Positions 2,960-59,047 of a DNA stretch of 64,000 nt are shown in pieces. The translations under genes and the position numbers were made by a program. The notes beneath the pieces were generated by a model. The model ran no database searches, had not been told where the DNA came from, and saw only the letters and a program-made list of their open reading frames with translations. Numbering within the stretch: position 1 is the stretch's first letter; the number at the start of each line of letters is the position of its first letter. The stretch comes from Ostreococcus lucimarinus (lineage: Eukaryota), in NCBI GenBank assembly GCA_000092065.1, contig CP000581.1; one strand, written 5' to 3'.

Positions 2960-3474
2960 TGCGGCGAAGGATGTCCGGACATCCTAAACGCATCTTTTTT
3001 TTGGGCGAACGGTTGTCGTTGACATCGCGCCGAAGCGGTACGTCCGCGCGCTGACGACGCTCGCGCGCGCTCGCGAGTCCGAGCGCACTTTTTGTTCCTG
3101 TATGGGCTTCTTTTCGCTTCACTCATATTTTGCAGTTTGTTTTCCTATCACTTTTATACCTCCTCAATGCTTACTGGTAATCACTGTGGTACCACACCCA
3201 GTTGTCGGACATTTTTAGAGAGATCAAGAGGACGCGGAGATGTTCGCCGCAAAGCGCGCGTAGAAGCCGCCCGATACGCGCGCTGCTCATACATTGATTG
3301 CGTGGTACGCATCGTCGATCGATATCGATGGTCTCCATGTTACAAGGTGTATCGCCGCTAAAGGTGTCGTCGTCGTCCGTTCGTCGTTCGCTCGGCTCGA
3401 TCGAGTCCCGCGTCTGAAAACCGACGCTCCGGTCGAATCACGACCGCGACGACGACGGTTATTGCTTTCGTCTT

Positions 3475-37268: not shown

Positions 37269-39188
37269 TTAATCGATCTTGACACTTCCGTAAATCGCAC
37301 GAACGAATGCTAAACTCGCCAAGAAACCCACAGTGCCCGTGAGGATGAAGAATCCAAACGACAAAACCGACATGTACGAAAAGTAGATGAATGTCGTCAG
37401 TTTGTGCGTCACCACAAGCGTGGTGTGGTAGTAGACGATCCCGTACGCGAACATGTAGAACGCGGCCGCTCCACTTGTCAAGAACGATCGCCACCACCAA
37501 CGATAATCTTCGGCGCAGAGTTGGAAGTAGCACATGACGACGGTGATTTCCGCACACGTGACGACGAGAATGATGAAGACGAGCGCCAGGAAGCCAAATA
37601 TGTAGTAGAACTGCTGAAGCCAGATGCTAGTGAGGATGAAGAACAGCTCGATGAACACCGCCCCAAACGGAAGCACGCCTCCGATGAGAACGGCCACGGC
37701 ATCGTGCATGTACCAAGGCTGCGGCGGGATTTGGCGTGGAATCTTATTCGTTCGCACAGGTTCCTCCAAAGGCTCTCTCTTGAAACCCAAGTAACTCCCC
37801 ATGAAAGTCAGCGGGACGGAGATACCGAACCACAAGAACATGAGAACAAAATACGTTCCGAACGGGATCGCACCACTGCTCTTTTGACCCCAGATAAGAA
37901 CGTTCAACACCGTACCCACTGTGAAGACGACGCCAGGATACAACAAAGAAGCCTTGACGGCGTTCATCTTCCAAGTTTGACCTTTGAACATACGGAACAA
38001 AAATGCGCTGACGAAACCATTCACGAAGCTCATGATGACGTAAATCATCACCATAGCGGTCATGAGCCCACCTCGATTGGCGGGTGATAAGAACCCGAGA
38101 ACAGCGAAGAAGATGGTTACCGTCGTCATGCAGAGGAGTTGCACGCCCGTGCCGGCGAAGACGGAGAGCCAGGTGTAGTGCGCCGGAACGCGGAAGACGT
38201 CACCGTGAACCAACTTCCAACCAGACTCTTCTTGCGTTTCTTCAGCGGTTTCGAGCTGGTTATACACGGTAATATCGCGATGAAGCGTTCGCAGCATGAT
38301 GAGCGCCGTCATCACCGACAAGAAGAGCACAATCATCATGCTGTTGATGATGGAAAACCAGTGAATTTCATCGTCTGCCATCAAGAGATACGTATCCCAA
38401 CGGCTCGCCCACCGAATGTCACTCTCTTTGAATAGCGTGTCGTACGTGTACACGATTTCTTCACCCGGCTTGACCTCTTGCGGCGCGCTCCCCTCCGAAA
38501 CGTACACTTGCTGCCTCGGATCGCACGTTTTCAACAACGGCTTATCGTCGCTCCACTTCTTATACTTGTGATCCACGCTGAATGGCTCGCATTCGAATCC
38601 AACGATTCTACTCAAATCCGTCTCCTGATCCTTGTGATACAAGATCGTGAAGCGAATGTGATTATTCACGTACGCTTTCCCGTCCTCCGTCGTGAATCCC
38701 ACTGGATATCCGCGTTCGTACTTTTTCCTCGTCCCTTGCTCGTCCTCCACGTACCGCGTCATCCCCACCGGTAGATTATCCAATATCATCTGCACCCTGT
38801 ATTCGTCCTTGATCATTCCTTTCAGCGTTTTCGCTTCCTCTTCGCTCAACTGTTTCCGACACTGCACCTTGCACCGATCGTCGAATCGCATCTCCAGCGA
38901 GTACAGCGAATTCTCGATCCGATCTCCTCGCAGCACCTCCCCGAGGTTCTCCGCCGCGTGTTTTATCTTATCCGGTTTACAGTACGGCAGCGCGTAGTAA
39001 TCGTACGGCAACTGCGTGACCGTGGACGTGAGTTTGTTCACCTTGATGTACACCAAGTCGTCGCGCTCGTAATCGATCGGGGCGACGCCGGGGAGATAAA
39101 ACGCGCGCGCGGAGCCGACGCGACGCGCGAGCGCGCACGCGAACGCGACGAGGGCGACGACGCGCGCGTTTCGCGCGCGAACGCGCAT
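37269..39188 (-). CDS. TM9SF: transmembrane 9 superfamily protein (nonaspanin / EMP70)
   Basis: It has a signal peptide, then FYLPGVAPIDYERDDLVYIKVNKLTSTVTQLPYDYYALPYCKP, and nine C-terminal TM helices with TM9SF blocks (VHGDVFR, YFVLMFLW, SSGAIPFGT). The ORF 5' end was trimmed from 39317 to the ATG at 39186-39188 (MRVRARNARVVALVAFACALA...). Confidence 0.85.
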   Translation of the reverse strand: MRVRARNARVVALVAFACALARRVGSARAFYLPGVAPIDYERDDLVYIKVNKLTSTVTQLPYDYYALPYCKPDKIKHAAENLGEVLRGDRIENSLYSLEMRFDDRCKVQCRKQLSEEEAKTLKGMIKDEYRVQMILDNLPVGMTRYVEDEQGTRKKYERGYPVGFTTEDGKAYVNNHIRFTILYHKDQETDLSRIVGFECEPFSVDHKYKKWSDDKPLLKTCDPRQQVYVSEGSAPQEVKPGEEIVYTYDTLFKESDIRWASRWDTYLLMADDEIHWFSIINSMMIVLFLSVMTALIMLRTLHRDITVYNQLETAEETQEESGWKLVHGDVFRVPAHYTWLSVFAGTGVQLLCMTTVTIFFAVLGFLSPANRGGLMTAMVMIYVIMSFVNGFVSAFLFRMFKGQTWKMNAVKASLLYPGVVFTVGTVLNVLIWGQKSSGAIPFGTYFVLMFLWFGISVPLTFMGSYLGFKREPLEEPVRTNKIPRQIPPQPWYMHDAVAVLIGGVLPFGAVFIELFFILTSIWLQQFYYIFGFLALVFIILVVTCAEITVVMCYFQLCAEDYRWWWRSFLTSGAAAFYMFAYGIVYYHTTLVVTHKLTTFIYFSYMSVLSFGFFILTGTVGFLASLAFVRAIYGSVKID

Positions 39189-39313: not shown

Positions 39314-40747
39314 TCACGCGCGCGCGAGCTTCGAGGCGACGGTGAGATGGAGATCGCGTAAACGCTCGGACCAGTTGGCGAAGCCGCGAGCGCGAGCGAT
39401 GGCGTCGATGGCGCGCGGATCCTCGCGCGCGATGTGGACGACTTGCGCGCGTTGGTCGATTTTGGCGTCGACGCGGCGGTCGAGGATGAGGGAAACCATG
39501 AGGGACTCGACGTCGGGCTCGGGAATGTTGAGCTCGGTGGAGATGTAAGGGATCGTGATTCTGGTGTACGGCTCGATGAGTCTCAAGAGGACTTGGGTGC
39601 GGATGTTCTTCAGGAGATCCTCGACGTAATCGCGAATGAAGTCGTCGCCCATGACTTGCTCGCGATGCGTCTTGAGGAGTTGCTCGAATGCCGCGATATC
39701 GTTTCGTTGATACGCGCCAACGAGCGATCGCATGACGGTGACTTCTTTATCCTCGCGAAACGGTTTCACCTCTTGCGCGTCGAACGGGTCGACTTCGCTC
39801 TCCATGAGCATGTTCGCCAGGACCAGATATTTCAAGCACTGCACGCGTCGATCGCTACCGGCTTCGTCGTAGGATTTGAACGCTTCGAAGAAATCCGTCG
39901 CCGCGTTTTCCCAGTCGCGCTCTACCATGTACATCTTCCCACCGCACTCTCGAATAATGCCTAAGATTCGCGGATGCGGAATCGCCGACGTCACTTCTAA
40001 CGCCTTTTCGTACAAATCCTTGAGCTTCTTCGTGTTCTTTTGCGCCGTGTACATTTGTATCTCGATCGAGTACACCTCCAAAAGCTGCGTCCCTTTGCGC
40101 TGATCCACCGTGCCATCCTCATTTTGGCAACTCTTGTGCAGTTCCTTCAAAATCACCTGCATGCGCGCGAAATCTTTCGCGTCGAAGACCAGTTTACACA
40201 GCTTGAGATTCGTCTTGAACCACAGACGCTCGTTCTTCGTCTCTTCTAATTTTCTAAGCGTCGTCTCGTAAAACTCTTGCAAAAATCCCATATCCTCGTT
40301 CGACGCAATCGTATCTAATATCGAATTCAACACCTTTTCGCTGTAATTCCTCGTCACCGCGTCGTTGACGTACGTCAACAGCTCCTTGTACCGCTCCAGC
40401 ATCGCCCCCGCGTCGTTCATTTTATACAGCAGCTTGACCATTTGTTTCAACGCCTTGAACCCCCACTCGCCTTTCTCGTGCTCCATCGCGATCACTTCCT
40501 CGAAACCTTTCATCGCCGCTTCGTTCGCACCGCTCTCGAGCGAGCCTACGGACGTCATCTCGCGTCAGTCGGGTCGTTTCGTCGCGCCGTTGACGCGTTC
40601 GCATTCGCAAGGGGACGCGCGTTCGTCCGTCGAGTCGTCGCGCGGCGCACCTTTGGCGTTGTAGTAAGCGTTCTCGATGTCGACCTCATCTTCGTTGAAC
40701 TCGTCCTCGTCCGAGTACGTGAATCCGTAGTCGTCGTCGTCCGACAT
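39314..40747 (-). CDS. CSN2: COP9 signalosome subunit 2 (CSN2), two exons: join(39314..40545, 40651..40747)
   Basis: Exon 1 (the 60-aa track ORF, MSDDDDYGFTYSDEDEFNEDEVDIENAYYNAK) matches the CSN2 N-terminus. Exon 2 matches CSN2 over about 410 aa (EHEKGEWGFKALKQMVK..., LWFKTNLKLCKL..., GTQLLEVYSIEIQMYTAQKN..., IRTQVLLRLIEPYTRI...). The donor is AAAG|GTGCGC and the acceptor is ccgtag|GC. The intron is phase 1; splicing gives NAK-G-SLESGANEAAMKGF, collinear with human NSKALKEDDPKAALSSF. Confidence 0.85.
40546..40650 (-). other. spliceosomal intron of CSN2 (105 nt)
   Basis: Donor GTGCGC and acceptor tag. Branch-like ccgactgacg lies 19 nt upstream of the acceptor. Confidence 0.8.
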
Positions 40748-40820
40748 GTTCGCGGCGAGGCGGCGACTGGGGTCGAGAGGTGGTTGCGTCGGTTGGGTCG
40801 CGCTCCGGCGGCGCTCCGTA

Positions 40821-41846
40821 CTATTGAACTTCTAAGACGCGTTGGCCTATGCGCATTAACAGCGCGCGACTCTTGAGCTTGGTGTACTCGTGAAGCTTGG
40901 CGTAGGCGTAGAGCGAACCGGCGAAGAGGGGAAGCCGCGCGCCCTTTAAGCCGTTGGCGGCGAAGACGAAGGCAAAGCTCGGGCCGACGAATTCGGCGAC
41001 GCGGCGAATTCCCTGAACTTGAATTTTGTTGTACATACTCACGATGAAGGCGAGCAAGCCGACCATGAGGTACCCACCGGTGAAAAAGTCGAGGTATTCG
41101 TGTATCGCGATGATGCGCGGGGCGTGGAACCAACTGTCGGCGCGACGCAAGTCGCGCCAAGGAGGGATCCAACGCACAAGACGATAGAAGAAGACTTCGA
41201 CGTAACACGTCGACGCGTGCAGCGTCACGCCTCGATGGGTCTGCACGCGCTTCATGGTGAGTTCTGCTAGGATGCGATCGATGCTCGGACGCGATCGCAA
41301 CATGTTTCGCGCTTGAAGAAACTGGCGTACGCGCGTCATAATGAGAAACGCCCCGTGGCTCGCCGCGCGACACAGCGCGGCGACGAAGAGCGTTAAGAGA
41401 AACACACCCACGACTGCGAACACCAACGCGGGCTCTTCTCGCTCTAAATAACGCGCCGCTCTCGTGCGCTCGAGATTGTACTGATATCCGCATTGATCGC
41501 AGCCGTAAAAGCTCCGAGGATTTCGACTGAGGTTTCTCCACTCGTTCAGGCACTCCACGTGCACCAACGCCATCGAACCTCGACACCGGCACGGCGAAAA
41601 CAACCGTCCGCCATCCTCACCCGAAAAACATATCCTACACAACCGTTCGTCGTCATCGTCGTCGTCGTCGTCGTCGTTCGTCGTCGCTCGGATTTCTCGA
41701 GCCGCTCGCGACGCGCGCGCGACGTTCTCGTCCTCGCGTTCCCTCGCCCTTCGCTCCTCCACCTCGCGTCGCTGCGCCTCCCATCGCGCGCGATGTTCCA
41801 ACGCTCTTCGTCGCAGCGCTTCCTGCTGCACGGTCGACATCGACAT
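40821..41846 (-). CDS. MARCH-type RING-CH (RINGv) membrane E3 ubiquitin ligase
   Basis: The RING-CH C4HC3 finger is LCRICFSGEDGGRLFSPCRCRGSMALVHVECLNEWRNLS...YGCDQCGYQY, followed by TM segments (LVFAVVGVFLLTLFVAALC; MVGLLAFIVSMY). A poly-Asp tract is encoded by a GAC repeat. The track ORF begins with GTG at 41855; the first ATG is the 4th codon (41844-41846, MSMSTVQQ...). Confidence 0.65.
   Translation of the reverse strand: MSMSTVQQEALRRRALEHRARWEAQRREVEERRAREREDENVARASRAAREIRATTNDDDDDDDDDERLCRICFSGEDGGRLFSPCRCRGSMALVHVECLNEWRNLSRNPRSFYGCDQCGYQYNLERTRAARYLEREEPALVFAVVGVFLLTLFVAALCRAASHGAFLIMTRVRQFLQARNMLRSRPSIDRILAELTMKRVQTHRGVTLHASTCYVEVFFYRLVRWIPPWRDLRRADSWFHAPRIIAIHEYLDFFTGGYLMVGLLAFIVSMYNKIQVQGIRRVAEFVGPSFAFVFAANGLKGARLPLFAGSLYAYAKLHEYTKLKSRALLMRIGQRVLEVQ
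41647..41686. repeat. trinucleotide (GAC/GTC)n microsatellite encoding the poly-Asp tract of the MARCH-type ligase
   Basis: The sequence tcgtcgtcatcgtcgtcgtcgtcgtcgtcgttcgtcgtcgc is seen directly on the plus strand; it is antisense to the gene. Confidence 0.6.
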
Positions 41847-41851
41847 CGCGT

Positions 41852-42193
41852 TCACGTCCCGCGCACGTCAAACCTCAAGTCTTCAAGCTTCAACCCAGCC
41901 TCGGCGAGGGATTGCTTCACCGCCATCTGATCGCTCACCGTCTTGATCCTTCGCGCGATATCGTCCACGGTCATGCGATGGACGTTAAACTGATCGCGCG
42001 CGCCGCTCGCGAACTCCACCGCGACGACCGGCGGCGCGGCGTCGTTGCGCACGCGCGGCTCGACGGCGCACTCGGGGTTGGATTTCGCCGCCTTCGCCGT
42101 GGTGACGCGGGCGAGGAACTCGCGCGCAGCCGTGCTGCGAGGATCGAGCGGGTTGAATTGCACGCGCACGCGCTTCAGGTGGCGCAAGGGCAT
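41852..42193 (-). CDS. MRPL53: mitochondrial ribosomal protein L53 (MRP-L44 family)
   Basis: The 113-aa protein reads MPLRHLKRVRVQFNPLDPRSTAAREFLARVTTAKAAKSNPECAVEPRVRNDAAPPVVAVEF.... It aligns with human MRPL53: [59 protein letters not shown]. The ORF 5' end was trimmed from 42325 to the ATG at 42191-42193. Confidence 0.55.
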   Translation of the reverse strand: MPLRHLKRVRVQFNPLDPRSTAAREFLARVTTAKAAKSNPECAVEPRVRNDAAPPVVAVEFASGARDQFNVHRMTVDDIARRIKTVSDQMAVKQSLAEAGLKLEDLRFDVRGT

Positions 42194-42383
42194 GGAACGG
42201 GCGAACGCGCGGGTGACGACGCGCGCCCTCGAGTGCGGCGACGACGAACGGGACGACGGAGGTCGACGAGACGAGGGCGCTCGGATGGGGAATGAAGGAA
42301 TATTATACTGAATATTGAACCGCACACTGTGTGTCTATCTAGTTAACGCTATTGACTGCGTCCTACGCGAGCGCCGGTCGAAA

Positions 42384-57200: not shown

Positions 57201-58873
57201 GTCCGACGGACGCGCTTGCGCAACTTCGAAAGAAGATTGAATCTGTCCGCTCGCCAGAATTCGGCGTGCCTTTGGATGTTCCGCAAACCGTTGGATTGGC
57301 GCTGCACGAAGCTGCGGCCACCGCGGCGCCGAGCGCTCTTGTTTGGAAGTGTCTCATCTGCACTGGCGCGGAGGCAGACTCCGGAGCGAGCGCGTCATCA
57401 CGACCGAGGACGACTACAGCGACAATCGTCGCGGAGTGGCTGCGCACGAAACTTTCTCGGGGCGGAAGCGCACACGCGACAGAGCCTGGCACTGGGACGA
57501 TTTTGTCGCTCTACGGCGCCCGACTTCCACTTCCAGGAACTGATGAGGAAAATGATTACATGATGGGTCCTTTGGCCTGGATCGTCGTCAGAGACGTGCC
57601 AGCAATGATGGAAAATTCCAAAGGTTCCAACGCGGGCGCGTCATCGGCGATTTTCGTTCTCGATTGCGGTGGCGGCACGTGTGAGAGTCACGAGCTGAAG
57701 CGTCTTCGAGCGTTCAGCTCAGCGGTGAAGAGGAGTGAAGCGCCGCTTGTAATCTTCGTCGCATCGAGAGACAACACGAATCAGAACGATATCAAGAAAA
57801 GTATCACAAGTTCCGGCATCGAGGGCGCGTTGGTGATATTTCTTCCTCCGAAAGGTCCGGAAGAATGGTCCGACGACAAGTTGTCCGAAGTGCTGGTTTG
57901 GACGGCGGAACGCGCGCCAAAGGCGCCTCGACGCAGGATCGCATATCTTTCGGCAGAAATTGAAGAAGCGTTACGACCAGGCTATGTCAACTTGACGGTC
58001 AAGCCACGTGTGTCTCCGCGAGCGTGCATACGCGCGTTCAACGATGCCCTCGACCAGCTGGAGCATAAAATACTCGAAGCCGCGCAAACTGAGGACGGCG
58101 CTGAATGGCCGCCGGTTGAGATCGGTCTCGTCAACGCGGCGCTTCCGCCGCCTGGCTGGAGATCCAAGTCCCGTCGAACGAAAGTGTTAGATTTGTTGCA
58201 TTCCGTGCGCCTGCCAGATTTCGAGGCTGGAGAGAAGCCCGTGCGCGCTTTCATCGATTACGTCGCAGCGGTGTTACCGCACTACCCGAAAGACTACGGC
58301 CAATGCTTGCTCGCGCAAGCGCGATACGACCCGCATTTCCACAAGCTGCAAGACATTCCGTGGGTGACGCTGTTCCAAACTCTCATCACACTTCTGCTGA
58401 GCGGATTAGAGAGCCAAAGCCGCGACGCGTGCATCTACCTTCCTCCGGGTCATCCCTCGTACGACTTCACGCCGTACGAGCCCGAGCCGGAATTGCTCGC
58501 CGAACGCGCGTCTTCGAAGACGCCGACCGAAGCCTTTGACGACGCCACGAACCGCAAGCGCAAGCACGAGGCGCTCGCCACCGCCATCCCCGAAGCCAGT
58601 CGGTTCGAAGAGATCGACTCCGCACCCTTGGACAACGTTCGCGCCGTCTTGGACGATTTACGTCGCGACGTCGACGCGCACGCGCGCTTCGCCGACGCCT
58701 CCGAGCGTTGGCTCGCCGCGCTCGCGACCAACACCCCCGGCACCGCCGAAGACCCCGAATCGTTCGCCGACGCCGGCGAATCGGACGCGCATCTGACCGC
58801 GTTCAACGCGTCCGTCGCCGCCGAGCGCGCCGCCGAGGCGCGTCTCCGGCTTCTCCTCGACGCCGCGCCGTAG
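54203..58873 (+). CDS. SAC3: SAC3/GANP-family mRNA-export protein with N-terminal FG-repeat (nucleoporin-like) region and a central charged coiled coil
   Basis: The N-terminal approximately 330 aa carry FG/PFG/AFG/GFG repeats (SPFGASASPFG...). The SAC3/GANP homology block is TCDLMCPAKEREFRSANGDLEVFERVDPEDRMKSHPDLCIKKYTRIVDEITPDMVRTKKGLQLAIDQLWRILDAEDKDFMTKSKFLWDRLRSIRQDLNLQQI...VKLLEQMVRYTILAEHELCE. A K/A/E-rich repeat (AEAKARAEAEAAEAERRRLAEEAARAKAEAEAKALAEAERRKAEEE) follows. The ORF 5' end was trimmed from 53711 to the ATG at 54203 (MFGGDGADGANPFG...). Confidence 0.7.
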   Translation: MFGGDGADGANPFGAPRARAFGTSARDASASPFGASDPFGRGDASATTATTAPGGAPGAGGGTATPFGGFGGGAPAANAPGGVGGASGGFGGFGASASASPFGSGTGAAAHGASGGGGSAFGGGANAFGGGGAFGASAPAASASPFGAPASPFGTGAPAASASPFGASASPFGASASPFGASASPFGASASPFGASAPQTAPSTPFAPVASSPFGGGPSSTTALVFGAFGAASPSSTPSPFAVKVPEPSAAASPFGGGGFSFSASPTTAPASPFGASPFGAAPAVSSAPTGGIFGVAPTTGGLSATASPFAPKPATSGFAFGGANPPEAEKRDAIASIPAFGGGAKAFVPPKPKPIADRLNLASEAPSTSNAAGDETGEITTSSGHIVGTCDLMCPAKEREFRSANGDLEVFERVDPEDRMKSHPDLCIKKYTRIVDEITPDMVRTKKGLQLAIDQLWRILDAEDKDFMTKSKFLWDRLRSIRQDLNLQQITDSFAVKLLEQMVRYTILAEHELCEATASATNPDGHNSHLNVEQLTKTLTSLRHMYDDHADRGQQLGIDAEAEMFCYQLLLRIDSHGRYAVQRSEMLNDLRSVRAEVLKHRDVQFALQCHRAYHENNVARFFHLVKKATYVQACCLHKFFNSMRGKALEVMNTTYGKFIMPITEIARLLHTDDMETEALCIHHGLNVTRGKAGDKPPAVTMRESSYISPAEEFPISRSDLIMNKRAASYLLEIVGKDESVRIAAKTLPTMSTPKTTPQLSEADKRKQQADELRAKIALRESQLEKERAAILAKKKEIEERKAAEKKAAEEAERKAKEAEEAARRAEEEAKAAEAKARAEAEAAEAERRRLAEEAARAKAEAEAKALAEAERRKAEEEAERQRVLAEERARETAAAAHRAAIAKAEAEARARRAAEAEAERLRLIAEENARRQAAEAKAARKRAKRHMAIRRLTFSLWRMNSKEFKRERLIGEALAMASPAPALNLGGKALLDASAASERPTDALAQLRKKIESVRSPEFGVPLDVPQTVGLALHEAAATAAPSALVWKCLICTGAEADSGASASSRPRTTTATIVAEWLRTKLSRGGSAHATEPGTGTILSLYGARLPLPGTDEENDYMMGPLAWIVVRDVPAMMENSKGSNAGASSAIFVLDCGGGTCESHELKRLRAFSSAVKRSEAPLVIFVASRDNTNQNDIKKSITSSGIEGALVIFLPPKGPEEWSDDKLSEVLVWTAERAPKAPRRRIAYLSAEIEEALRPGYVNLTVKPRVSPRACIRAFNDALDQLEHKILEAAQTEDGAEWPPVEIGLVNAALPPPGWRSKSRRTKVLDLLHSVRLPDFEAGEKPVRAFIDYVAAVLPHYPKDYGQCLLAQARYDPHFHKLQDIPWVTLFQTLITLLLSGLESQSRDACIYLPPGHPSYDFTPYEPEPELLAERASSKTPTEAFDDATNRKRKHEALATAIPEASRFEEIDSAPLDNVRAVLDDLRRDVDAHARFADASERWLAALATNTPGTAEDPESFADAGESDAHLTAFNASVAAERAAEARLRLLLDAAP
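54680..54785 (+). repeat. 5 tandem copies of a 21-nt unit (gcgagcgcgagtcctttcggc; encodes ASASPFG) inside the SAC3/GANP FG-repeat region
   Basis: Perfect or near-perfect 21-nt tandem copies are visible at 54681-54785 and encode the repeated peptide ASASPFG. Confidence 0.7.
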
Positions 58874-59047
58874 CCACGCCTCGTCGCGCGAGACGAATGT
58901 CGAATGCATCACAATCGCGCGCGCCGCGCCGCGCCGCGCCACCGCACGCGCCGCGCCCGGCGCGACCGCACCGGTGATCGAAATCGCCCGCGCCCGCGCC
59001 CGTCGCCCGCGCGCGACGCCGCGCCCGCGCGCGCGCGTCGTCGACGC

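What the first reader, a model, noticed from the sequence alone, without database searches (positions are those of the whole stretch)
41838..41860. MRPL53 stop codon lies 5 nt upstream of the ATG of the next gene (MARCH-type RING-CH ligase) on the same strand
On the minus strand the MRPL53 reading frame ends ...DVRGT-TGA at 41852-41854. It is followed by acgcg and then ATG TCG ATG TCG ACC GTG, the first ATG of the RING-CH ligase. An in-frame GTG start even overlaps the stop as GTGA. There is no room for a terminator plus promoter. Either the pair is co-transcribed as a dicistronic mRNA with reinitiation, or the ligase has an unrecognised upstream exon or alternative start, or the two are one gene joined by a frameshift or splice I cannot see.
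Basis: seen in the sequence. Interest (0 to 1): 0.5.

Follow-up and report, generated by a model that had tools for sequence, protein, structure and literature searches.

The report
Two algal genes five bases apart
In the tiny marine alga Ostreococcus lucimarinus, a mitochondrial ribosomal protein gene stops 5 bases before a membrane ubiquitin-ligase gene starts; this gap stays at 2-22 bases across Ostreococcus and Bathycoccus, so the pair is probably read from one two-gene messenger RNA of a kind already known in other green algae, although no RNA evidence could be obtained here.

Summary
On the minus strand, mL53/MRPL53 (42193..41852) ends with TGA at 41854-41852. Five bases (acgcg) follow, then the first ATG (41846) of a RING-CH ligase (41846..40821). 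The window is O. lucimarinus CCE9901; its deposited ligase model is 5'-partial and hides the junction.

Both proteins align end to end with stand-alone homologues in Micromonas-type contigs. Stop and start are intact in six lineages, and the relative reading frame differs between them.

The pair stays 2-22 nt apart in five Ostreococcus lineages and in Bathycoccus prasinos, although flanking genes differ in Bathycoccus. Neighbouring spacers range from 73 to over 300 nt. ORF sizes (342 and 1026 nt) match published green-algal bicistrons. The ORF1 AUG has a weak context in all Ostreococcus lineages. Out-of-frame AUGs are scarce in ORF1, and no 3'-end-like signal follows it.

Best reading: a bicistronic mRNA with leaky scanning, perhaps plus reinitiation (about 0.5). 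Main rival: a ligase transcript starting inside the MRPL53 coding region (about 0.35). I found no transcript evidence. If confirmed, it would be a new member of a known kind.

The parts
42194..42383 (-). 190-nt intergenic region upstream of MRPL53. It follows the stop of the A_thal_3526-domain gene and contains an AT-rich stretch at about 42291-42319. It is the presumed shared promoter and 5'UTR, and it contains no ATG.
   Evidence: minimum GC of 0.15 in 20-nt windows upstream of MRPL53; Pfam hit of the upstream gene.
41852..42193 (-). ORF1: mitochondrial large-subunit ribosomal protein mL53 (MRPL53), 113 aa. It is identical to XP_001415879.1 of O. lucimarinus CCE9901. The AUG context is cgttccATGc (-3 T, +4 C, weak). 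There are two internal in-frame ATGs and no out-of-frame ATG.
41852..41854 (-). TGA stop codon of MRPL53.
41847..41851 (-). 5-nt inter-ORF spacer, acgcg.
41853..41855 (-). GTG in the ligase frame that overlaps the MRPL53 stop (GTGA). It is not conserved: the L029 lineage has ACGTAA here, so it is unlikely to be the start.
40821..41846 (-). ORF2: RING-CH (MARCH/Doa10-type) membrane E3 ligase, 341 aa. The first ATG at 41846 has context aacgcgATGt (-3 G); a second ATG lies at 41840. The deposited model ABO94170.1 is 5'-partial, covering residues 29-341.
41490..41639 (-). RING-CH domain (residues 70-119, C4HC3 pattern).
   Evidence: PF12906 match to residues 70-119; invariant Cys/His columns.
40748..40820 (-). 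73-nt spacer between the ligase stop and the ATG of CSN2 exon 1. It is 74% G+C and has no AT-rich 3'-end-like stretch.

Best explanation
MRPL53 and the RING-CH ligase form a nuclear bicistronic unit of the kind described in chlorophyte green algae. One promoter in the 190-nt region upstream of MRPL53 would drive a single capped, polyadenylated mRNA of about 1.5 kb carrying both ORFs. Most ribosomes would start at the MRPL53 AUG. Because that AUG has a poor context (pyrimidine at -3, C at +4) and ORF1 is short with few AUGs, a fraction of scanning 40S subunits would pass through and start at the ligase AUG, which has a purine at -3 (leaky scanning). With only 2-22 nt between stop and start, some termination-reinitiation may add to this.

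Shown here: the gene identities, the geometry, its conservation across lineages, and the sequence features. Inferred: the single transcript and the route by which ORF2 is translated.

I put about 0.5 on the bicistronic transcript being the main source of ligase protein. Given that, I put about 0.6 on leaky scanning as the main route.
For: (1) Geometry: 5 nt between stop and ATG.

(2) Conserved tightness. The spacer is 5 nt in O. lucimarinus (window, L001-L009, L020-L025), 11 nt in O. tauri (L010-L014, annotated there as two genes, CEF96696 and CEF96695), and 2, 14 and 22 nt in three further Ostreococcus lineages (L026, L029, L033). It is 4 nt in Bathycoccus prasinos (L041-L043). Neighbouring spacers in the same loci are long and variable: upstream gene to MRPL53 is about 127-230 nt, and ligase to CSN2 is 73 to over 300 nt.

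(3) The pair survives rearrangement. In Bathycoccus a GST gene lies between the A_thal_3526 gene and MRPL53, and no PCI-domain (CSN2) gene was called downstream. The two ORFs nevertheless stay 4 nt apart. In Micromonas-type contigs both genes stand alone.

(4) Fit to the published archetype. ORF1 is 342 nt and ORF2 is 1026 nt. Published medians are 357/291 nt for ORF1, 1113/1185 nt for ORF2 and 183/40 nt for the inter-ORF distance (PMC11892635).

(5) AUG contexts. The ORF1 AUG has a pyrimidine at -3 in all five Ostreococcus lineages, whereas 26 of 33 window genes have a purine there. The stand-alone Micromonas-type MRPL53 has A at -3. The ORF2 AUG has a purine at -3 in all six lineages.

(6) Out-of-frame ATGs in ORF1 number 0, 0, 0, 1, 0, 0 in the six lineages. 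Synonymous permutation predicts 1.5-2.6 each. The stand-alone homologue has 2.

(7) No 3'-end-like signal after ORF1. In 26 of 33 genes there is an AT-rich trough within 150 nt of the stop, and TGTAA is about 14-fold enriched there. MRPL53 has the highest minimum GC of all 33 genes.

(8) The junction is unstructured in all six lineages (z = +0.2 to +2.0).

(9) A 1583-nt Logan contig of O. tauri (L014) runs from 51 nt upstream of ATG1 to 93 nt past stop2. This is suggestive only.
Against: No transcript-level evidence was obtained. Every other short contig I could retrieve was genomic (introns or flanking genes present). L014 has no poly(A) tail and I could not determine its library type. Short-read assemblies would in any case merge overlapping transcripts.

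This genome clearly tolerates overlapping transcription units. Convergent genes have only 48-70 nt between their stops. The ligase-to-CSN2 spacer is 73 nt, GC-rich and lacks a 3'-end-like signal, yet CSN2 cannot plausibly be reached by scanning through a 1-kb ORF containing 13 ATGs. A start site inside MRPL53 is therefore plausible.

The statistical signals are weak. For the window alone, the ATG depletion has P of about 0.06, and genes genome-wide already show an observed/expected ratio of 0.70. The lineages are not independent.

Bathycoccus ORF1 has G at -3 and four in-frame internal AUGs, two of them with a purine at -3. That fits pure leaky scanning poorly.
Confidence: 0.5

Rival explanations
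1. Nested or overlapping monocistronic units. The ligase has its own transcription start inside the MRPL53 coding sequence. MRPL53 mRNA either ends inside the ligase coding region or runs on to the ligase 3' end. The 5-nt gap would be a by-product of genome compaction with no translational coupling.
For: Overlap of transcription units is unavoidable elsewhere in the window. Convergent pairs have 48-70 nt between stops, and the ligase-to-CSN2 spacer is 73 nt, 74% G+C and has no AT-rich 3' signal. Convergent overlapping 3'UTRs are documented in the related Micromonas (PMC4815162). Only about half of the window's genes have an AT-rich trough upstream, so a promoter hidden in coding sequence cannot be ruled out from composition. 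Bathycoccus ORF1 has a good -3 context and several internal AUGs.
Against: Nothing in this model explains why the gap stays at 22 nt or less in six lineages while neighbouring spacers drift between 73 and over 300 nt, or why the pair stays together when the flanks rearrange. No nucleotide-level element is conserved in ORF1. Synonymous conservation is not clustered in the 3' half (7 of 26 codons against 13 of 40), and no 7-mer in the last 120 nt is shared across lineages. The weak ORF1 AUG context in all Ostreococcus lineages and the scarcity of out-of-frame ATGs are also left unexplained.
Confidence: 0.35
2. A variant of the best explanation. The mRNA is bicistronic, but the ligase is made mainly by termination-reinitiation. 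Ribosomes finishing the 113-codon MRPL53 ORF leave a 40S subunit that restarts at the AUG 2-22 nt downstream.
For: The gap is constrained to 22 nt or less in all six lineages, which suits reinitiation better than leaky scanning. Bathycoccus ORF1 has a purine at -3 and four internal in-frame AUGs that would intercept leaky-scanning ribosomes. The junction is unstructured.
Against: Reinitiation after long ORFs is normally inefficient without a helper element. No TGGGA (TURBS-like) motif and no shared 7-mer or longer lies upstream of the stop. Experiments in Chlamydomonas and Auxenochlorella favoured leaky scanning over reinitiation (PMC11892635). The weak ORF1 AUG context in Ostreococcus points towards leaky scanning.
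Confidence: 0.2
3. The two ORFs are really one gene producing an MRPL53-ligase fusion by splicing, frameshifting or readthrough, or the ligase has an unrecognised upstream exon or a different start.
For: Only the proximity itself, and the fact that the ligase frame is -1 relative to MRPL53 in four lineages.
Against: Stop and start codons are intact in all six lineages. The relative frame is +2 in four and +1 in two. A stop in the ligase frame lies 7 codons upstream of the ATG, and no slippery heptamer is present. The ligase N-terminus aligns from Met1 with stand-alone homologues P0058 and P0060. The MRPL53 C-terminus aligns with stand-alone homologues. Both genes are separate in Micromonas-type contigs. 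The next in-frame Met lies inside the RING, so a downstream start would destroy the domain.
Confidence: 0.03

Closest known systems
Nuclear bicistronic/polycistronic loci of chlorophyte green algae (Gallaher et al. 2021, PMC7896298; PNAS 2025 leaky-scanning study, PMC11892635)
   Same: A small conserved ORF1 (342 nt) lies upstream of an ORF2 of about 1 kb on the same strand, with a very short inter-ORF distance. The ORF1 AUG context is weak, AUGs upstream of ORF2 are few, the inter-ORF region has no structure or IRES-like element, and colinearity is conserved across species.
   Different: No full-length transcript evidence exists here. The pair is not in the published lists, which for O. lucimarinus contain only colinear orthologues of Chlamydomonas pairs spaced 127 and 537 nt apart. 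The pairing is restricted to Ostreococcus and Bathycoccus and is absent from Micromonas-type genomes. Bathycoccus ORF1 lacks the weak AUG context.
Termination-reinitiation with a TURBS element (calicivirus VP1/VP2, influenza B M1/BM2)
   Same: The stop of a long upstream ORF lies within a few nucleotides of the downstream start.
   Different: No 18S-complementary UGGGA motif, and no conserved sequence of any kind, lies upstream of the junction. This is a cellular gene pair, not a viral one.
Overlapping transcription units in compact eukaryotic genomes (convergent overlapping pairs in Micromonas, PMC4815162; from my own knowledge, microsporidia and nucleomorphs)
   Same: The genome is extremely gene-dense, and UTRs must overlap neighbouring genes. 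Convergent stops in this window lie 48-70 nt apart.
   Different: Those cases are mostly tail-to-tail 3'UTR overlaps with variable spacing. Here the pair is head-to-tail, and the gap is held at 22 nt or less across genera.
SL trans-spliced operons (nematodes, kinetoplastids; from my own knowledge)
   Same: Same-strand genes are co-transcribed from one promoter.
   Different: Those systems cut the precursor into monocistronic mRNAs and need roughly 100 nt or more between genes for 3'-end formation and trans-splicing. A gap of 2-22 nt leaves no room for that. To my knowledge SL trans-splicing has not been reported in Mamiellales.

Membership tests
Green-algal nuclear bicistronic loci | Two conserved protein-coding ORFs on one strand, separated by a short inter-ORF region | tested here: met
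   5 nt in the window and 2-22 nt in five other lineages. Both ORFs have Pfam domains.
Green-algal nuclear bicistronic loci | A single mature polyadenylated transcript spans both ORFs (Iso-Seq, EST or Northern evidence) | not testable with these tools
   The only hint is L014, a 1583-nt Logan contig that brackets both O. tauri ORFs. Its library type is unknown and it has no poly(A) tail.
Green-algal nuclear bicistronic loci | No separate monocistronic mRNA for ORF2 | not testable with these tools
   This needs 5'-end mapping. No conserved embedded element was found in ORF1, but that does not exclude an internal start site.
Green-algal nuclear bicistronic loci | ORF1 is small (median about 290-360 nt) and ORF2 is about 1.1 kb | tested here: met
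   342 nt and 1026 nt, against the published medians.
Green-algal nuclear bicistronic loci | Weak Kozak-like context at the ORF1 AUG | tested here: met
   The -3 base is T or C and +4 is C in all five Ostreococcus lineages, while 26 of 33 window genes have a purine at -3. Exception: Bathycoccus has G at -3.
Green-algal nuclear bicistronic loci | AUGs are under-represented upstream of ORF2 | tested here: inconclusive
   The window's ORF1 has 0 out-of-frame ATGs against 1.7 expected (P about 0.06). Over six lineages, 1 was observed against about 10 expected, but the lineages are related and the genome-wide ratio is already 0.70. Two in-frame Met codons remain.
Green-algal nuclear bicistronic loci | Colinearity is conserved across species | tested here: met
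   Five Ostreococcus lineages plus Bathycoccus prasinos. The genes are unlinked in Micromonas-type contigs.
Green-algal nuclear bicistronic loci | Both ORFs are translated (proteomics or ribosome profiling) | not tested
TURBS-type termination-reinitiation | A conserved 18S rRNA-complementary motif (UGGGA) lies upstream of the stop/start site | tested here: not met
   No TGGGA occurs in the 120 nt before the stop in any lineage, and no 7-mer or longer is shared.
mL53 / MRP_L53 (PF10780) | The domain match exceeds the curated threshold and the protein is full length | tested here: met
   55.9 bits against a 25.3-bit cut-off. The protein is identical to XP_001415879.1. Its C-terminus aligns with stand-alone homologues.
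RING-CH (RINGv, PF12906; MARCH/Doa10-type) E3 ligases | A C4HC3 RING-variant domain followed by hydrophobic membrane segments | tested here: met
   48.9 bits against a 21.6-bit cut-off at residues 70-119. Solved relatives are Doa10, c-MIR and K3. Cys/His columns are invariant. The membrane segments were judged from hydrophobic stretches only. Ligase activity and cellular location were not tested.

The most novel reading that the evidence does not exclude
Ostreococcus and Bathycoccus would carry a lineage-specific bicistronic mRNA that arose after their split from Micromonas. The downstream ligase would be made mainly by efficient termination-reinitiation after a full-length 113-127-codon ORF, without any TURBS-like helper element. 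That route has not been demonstrated for cellular genes in green algae. It would explain why the gap is held at 22 nt or less.
Probability: 0.12. Interest if true: 0.6.

Novelty: new member of a known kind. Interest (0 to 1): 0.4.

Why it matters
Bicistronic nuclear mRNAs have been demonstrated in Chlamydomonas, Chromochloris and Auxenochlorella. In the marine picoalgae (Mamiellophyceae) they have only been inferred, from colinear orthologues of Chlamydomonas pairs.

This pair would be a bicistron specific to that lineage, with a clear before-and-after comparison: the genes are separate in Micromonas-type genomes and joined in Ostreococcus and Bathycoccus. That makes it a convenient case for asking how bicistrons arise during genome compaction. 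O. tauri allows gene targeting by homologous recombination (from my own knowledge), so leaky scanning and reinitiation could be tested against each other there.

It also has a practical side. The deposited O. lucimarinus ligase model is 5'-truncated and could be corrected. Expression studies should not assume that the two genes are regulated independently.

Tried and rejected
(1) Transcript evidence.
- An exact 35-mer scan of JGI metagenome contigs gave six contigs of 3.2-131 kb; none could be shown to be RNA-derived.
- Logan-only and short JGI contigs (L033-L035, L044) carried introns or flanking genes, so they are genomic too.
- L014 is only suggestive.

(2) Literature.
- The pair is not in the published bicistron datasets.
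- I found no Ostreococcus or Bathycoccus long-read transcriptome paper that addresses it.

(3) A conserved embedded element in ORF1 (internal promoter, IRES or TURBS).
- Synonymous-site conservation is not clustered, and the 35-nt identity between O. lucimarinus and O. tauri breaks down in other lineages.
- No 7-mer is shared and TGGGA is absent.

(4) RNA structure or a known RNA family at the junction.
- Fold z-scores are +0.2 to +2.0.
- Rfam gives only a sub-threshold chance hit.

(5) Frame conservation as a hint of frameshifting. The first four lineages all had spacers of length 2 mod 3, but the L033 lineage (22 nt) and Bathycoccus (4 nt) break the pattern.

(6) An AT-rich trough as a promoter detector. 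Only 17 of 33 genes have one upstream, so the test does not discriminate.

(7) Total ATG count in ORF1. Two internal ATGs against a window median of 3 is not significant.
Full report
WHAT IS THERE

The window is Ostreococcus lucimarinus CCE9901. The upstream protein is identical to XP_001415879.1/ABO94171.1, and neighbouring proteins match the same genome.

On the minus strand an ORF at 42193..41852 encodes a 113-aa protein that matches Pfam MRP_L53 (E=4.4e-15). It ends ...GAC GTG CGC GGG ACG TGA, with TGA at 41854-41852. Five bases (acgcg, 41851-41847) follow. Then comes ATG TCG ATG TCG ACC GTG, the start of a 341-aa ORF (41846..40821). That ORF has a RING-CH (RINGv) domain at residues 70-119 (E=7.3e-13). 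Its nearest solved relatives are the RING-CH domains of Doa10, c-MIR and K3. A GTG in the ligase frame overlaps the stop as GTGA.

The deposited O. lucimarinus ligase model (ABO94170.1, "partial", 313 aa) begins at residue 29 of this ORF. The juxtaposition is therefore hidden in the reference annotation. In O. tauri both genes are annotated separately (CEF96696 and CEF96695), with an 11-nt gap between their gene calls.

IS IT MORE THAN CHANCE?

I built a crude gene set for the window from long ORFs whose third codon position is the most G+C-rich (33 genes). It gives 18 same-strand neighbour pairs with stop-to-ATG gaps of 5, 30, 81, 97, 125, 138, 146, 162, 190 nt and upward, with a median of about 225 nt. 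So 5 nt is the extreme.

The tightness also recurs:
- 5 nt in all O. lucimarinus-type contigs
- 11 nt in O. tauri
- 2, 14 and 22 nt in three further Ostreococcus lineages recovered from metagenomes (L026, L029, L033)
- 4 nt in Bathycoccus prasinos (L041-L043, 49% G+C; the cluster contains CAL6345297.1)

.

In the same loci the gap from the upstream gene to MRPL53 is about 127-230 nt, and the gap from the ligase to CSN2 is 73 to over 300 nt. In Bathycoccus the flanks differ: a GST gene is inserted upstream, and no PCI-domain (CSN2) gene was called downstream. The pair nevertheless remains 4 nt apart.

In Micromonas-type contigs (58-67% G+C) the two genes are unlinked. MRPL53 is followed by an opposite-strand RCC1 gene. 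The full-length ligase homologues P0058 and P0060 sit behind a divergent neighbour.

REJECTED READINGS

The ligase N-termini of all lineages align from Met1 with the stand-alone homologues (MADE..GGSVV.AEALR.RA). The next in-frame Met lies inside the RING. There is therefore no missing exon and no alternative downstream start.

The MRPL53 C-terminus aligns with stand-alone homologues, so its 3' end is right.

The stop and start codons are intact everywhere. The ligase frame relative to MRPL53 is +2 in four lineages but +1 in the L033 lineage and in Bathycoccus. A stop in the ligase frame lies seven codons upstream of its ATG. A frameshift, readthrough or splice fusion is therefore not credible. 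The overlapping GTG is absent from the L029 lineage, which has ACGTAA.

HOW IT MOST LIKELY WORKS

The closest known phenomenon is the nuclear bicistronic mRNA of chlorophyte green algae (PMC7896298; PMC11892635). In the 2025 study (PMC11892635), ORF1 is small (median 357 or 291 nt), ORF2 is about 1.1 kb, and the inter-ORF distance is short (median 183 or 40 nt, with some stop/start overlaps). The 5'UTR is short, the ORF1 AUG has a weak context, and AUGs upstream of ORF2 are under-represented. Experiments there favour leaky scanning.

This locus fits on several points:
- ORF1 is 342 nt and ORF2 is 1026 nt.
- The ORF1 AUG has T or C at -3 and C at +4 in all five Ostreococcus lineages. By contrast, 26 of 33 window genes have a purine at -3, and the stand-alone Micromonas-type MRPL53 has A.
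- The ligase AUG has a purine at -3 in all six lineages.
- ORF1 has no out-of-frame ATG in five of six lineages. Synonymous permutation predicts 1.5-2.6 per lineage. The stand-alone homologue has two.
- There is no ATG in the 190 nt upstream of the O. lucimarinus ORF1.
- The junction is no more structured than shuffled sequence in any lineage (z = +0.2 to +2.0). No Rfam family matches.
- Most genes in the window are followed within 150 nt by an AT-rich trough (26 of 33), and TGTAA is about 14-fold enriched there. MRPL53 has the highest minimum GC of all 33 genes.

WHY CONFIDENCE IS ONLY ABOUT 0.5

I could not obtain RNA evidence. The JGI scan returned six contigs of 3.2-131 kb; none could be shown to be RNA-derived. 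Short Logan and JGI contigs contained introns or flanking genes.

One Logan contig, L014, brackets the O. tauri pair neatly, running from 51 nt upstream of ATG1 to 93 nt past stop2. A second protein variant is also reported on a contig of the same 1583-nt length. However, L014 has no poly(A) tail and I could not determine its library type. Short-read assembly would in any case merge overlapping transcripts.

The genome also clearly tolerates overlapping transcription units. Convergent genes have 48-70 nt between their stops. The O. lucimarinus ligase-to-CSN2 gap is 73 nt, 74% G+C and lacks any 3'-end-like signal, whereas O. tauri has 285 nt with an AT-rich stretch. CSN2 cannot be reached by scanning through a 1-kb ORF containing 13 ATGs. 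A ligase transcript starting inside the MRPL53 coding sequence is therefore a live rival (about 0.35).

Against that rival:
- It gives no reason for the gap to stay at 22 nt or less across genera while other gaps drift.
- ORF1 contains no conserved nucleotide-level element. Synonymous conservation is 13 of 40 codons in the first half against 7 of 26 in the second. No 7-mer is shared in the last 120 nt.

THE TRANSLATION ROUTE

The weak ORF1 AUG context and the scarcity of AUGs in Ostreococcus point to leaky scanning. Bathycoccus ORF1, however, has G at -3 and four in-frame internal AUGs, two of them with a purine at -3. That, together with the universally tiny gap, leaves room for termination-reinitiation. 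No TURBS-like UGGGA motif is present. I treat reinitiation as a variant of the best explanation, at about 0.2 overall.

NOVELTY AND VERDICT

The pair is not in the published bicistron lists. For O. lucimarinus those lists contain only "colinear" orthologues of Chlamydomonas pairs, spaced 127 and 537 nt apart. If transcript data confirm it, this is a new member of a known kind, specific to Ostreococcus and Bathycoccus. It would also show how a bicistron arises, because the genes are separate in Micromonas-type genomes and joined in these two genera.

It is a sound, moderately interesting observation.

Noticed in passing
window 40748-40820 (minus strand): The ligase stop and the ATG of CSN2 exon 1 are only 73 nt apart. 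The spacer is 74% G+C and lacks the AT-rich or TGTAA-type sequence seen after most genes. In O. tauri the same gap is 285 nt and starts with an AT-rich stretch. So in O. lucimarinus the ligase 3' end and the CSN2 promoter and 5'UTR must overlap coding sequence, or all three genes share transcripts.
   Followed up: partly
window 58871-58906 (plus strand): A second very tight same-strand pair. The stop of a 1696-aa SAC3/GANP protein (ORF ends at 58873) lies 30 nt before the first ATG (58904) of a G-patch protein, with no AT-rich stretch between them. The G-patch domain starts at residue 73, so the true start could lie further downstream.
   Followed up: partly
window 8396/8445, 25139/25197, 34643/34705, 37198/37269, 46852/46922: Convergent gene pairs have only 48-70 nt between their stop codons. 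Their 3'UTRs must be tiny or must overlap in antisense.
   Followed up: no
window 41763-41846 (minus strand): The deposited O. lucimarinus ligase model (ABO94170.1/XP_001415878.1, 'partial', 313 aa) lacks the first 28 codons. The full ORF starts at 41846, and its N-terminus is conserved in all relatives.
   Followed up: yes
window 41649-41675 (minus strand): The poly-Asp tract upstream of the RING varies in length. It has 9 Asp in the window (the CCE9901 reference) and 8 Asp in most metagenomic O. lucimarinus-type contigs (340-aa protein P0043). Another variant, P0166, has a D/A-rich 343-aa form.
   Followed up: partly
window-wide, 120 nt downstream of stop codons: TGTAA is about 14-fold enriched downstream of stop codons relative to coding sequence (8 of 33 genes within 120 nt). 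This is consistent with the UGUAA polyadenylation signal known from Chlamydomonas (from my own knowledge). In 26 of 33 genes there is an AT-rich trough within 150 nt of the stop.
   Followed up: partly
window 39314-40558 and 37269-39188 (minus strand): The first 342 nt of the CSN2 main ORF and of the TM9SF/EMP70 gene have no out-of-frame ATG. Synonymous permutation predicts 3.2 (P=0.004) and 2.1 (P=0.03). Genome-wide the observed/expected ratio is 0.70.
   Followed up: no
L041/L043 versus L042, positions 3382-3391 (Bathycoccus prasinos): The 4-nt spacer is polymorphic (TGCA or TACA). The TGCA allele creates an extra out-of-frame ATG that overlaps the stop (TAATG), 5 nt before the ligase ATG. 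It opens a 113-codon ORF.
   Followed up: no
window 40565-40747 and 39314-40558 (minus strand): CSN2 is split into a short acidic first exon (MSDDDDYGFTYSDEDE...) and a main exon by a short intron. Prokaryote-style gene callers on metagenome contigs report the two as separate 60-aa and 414-aa proteins.
   Followed up: no
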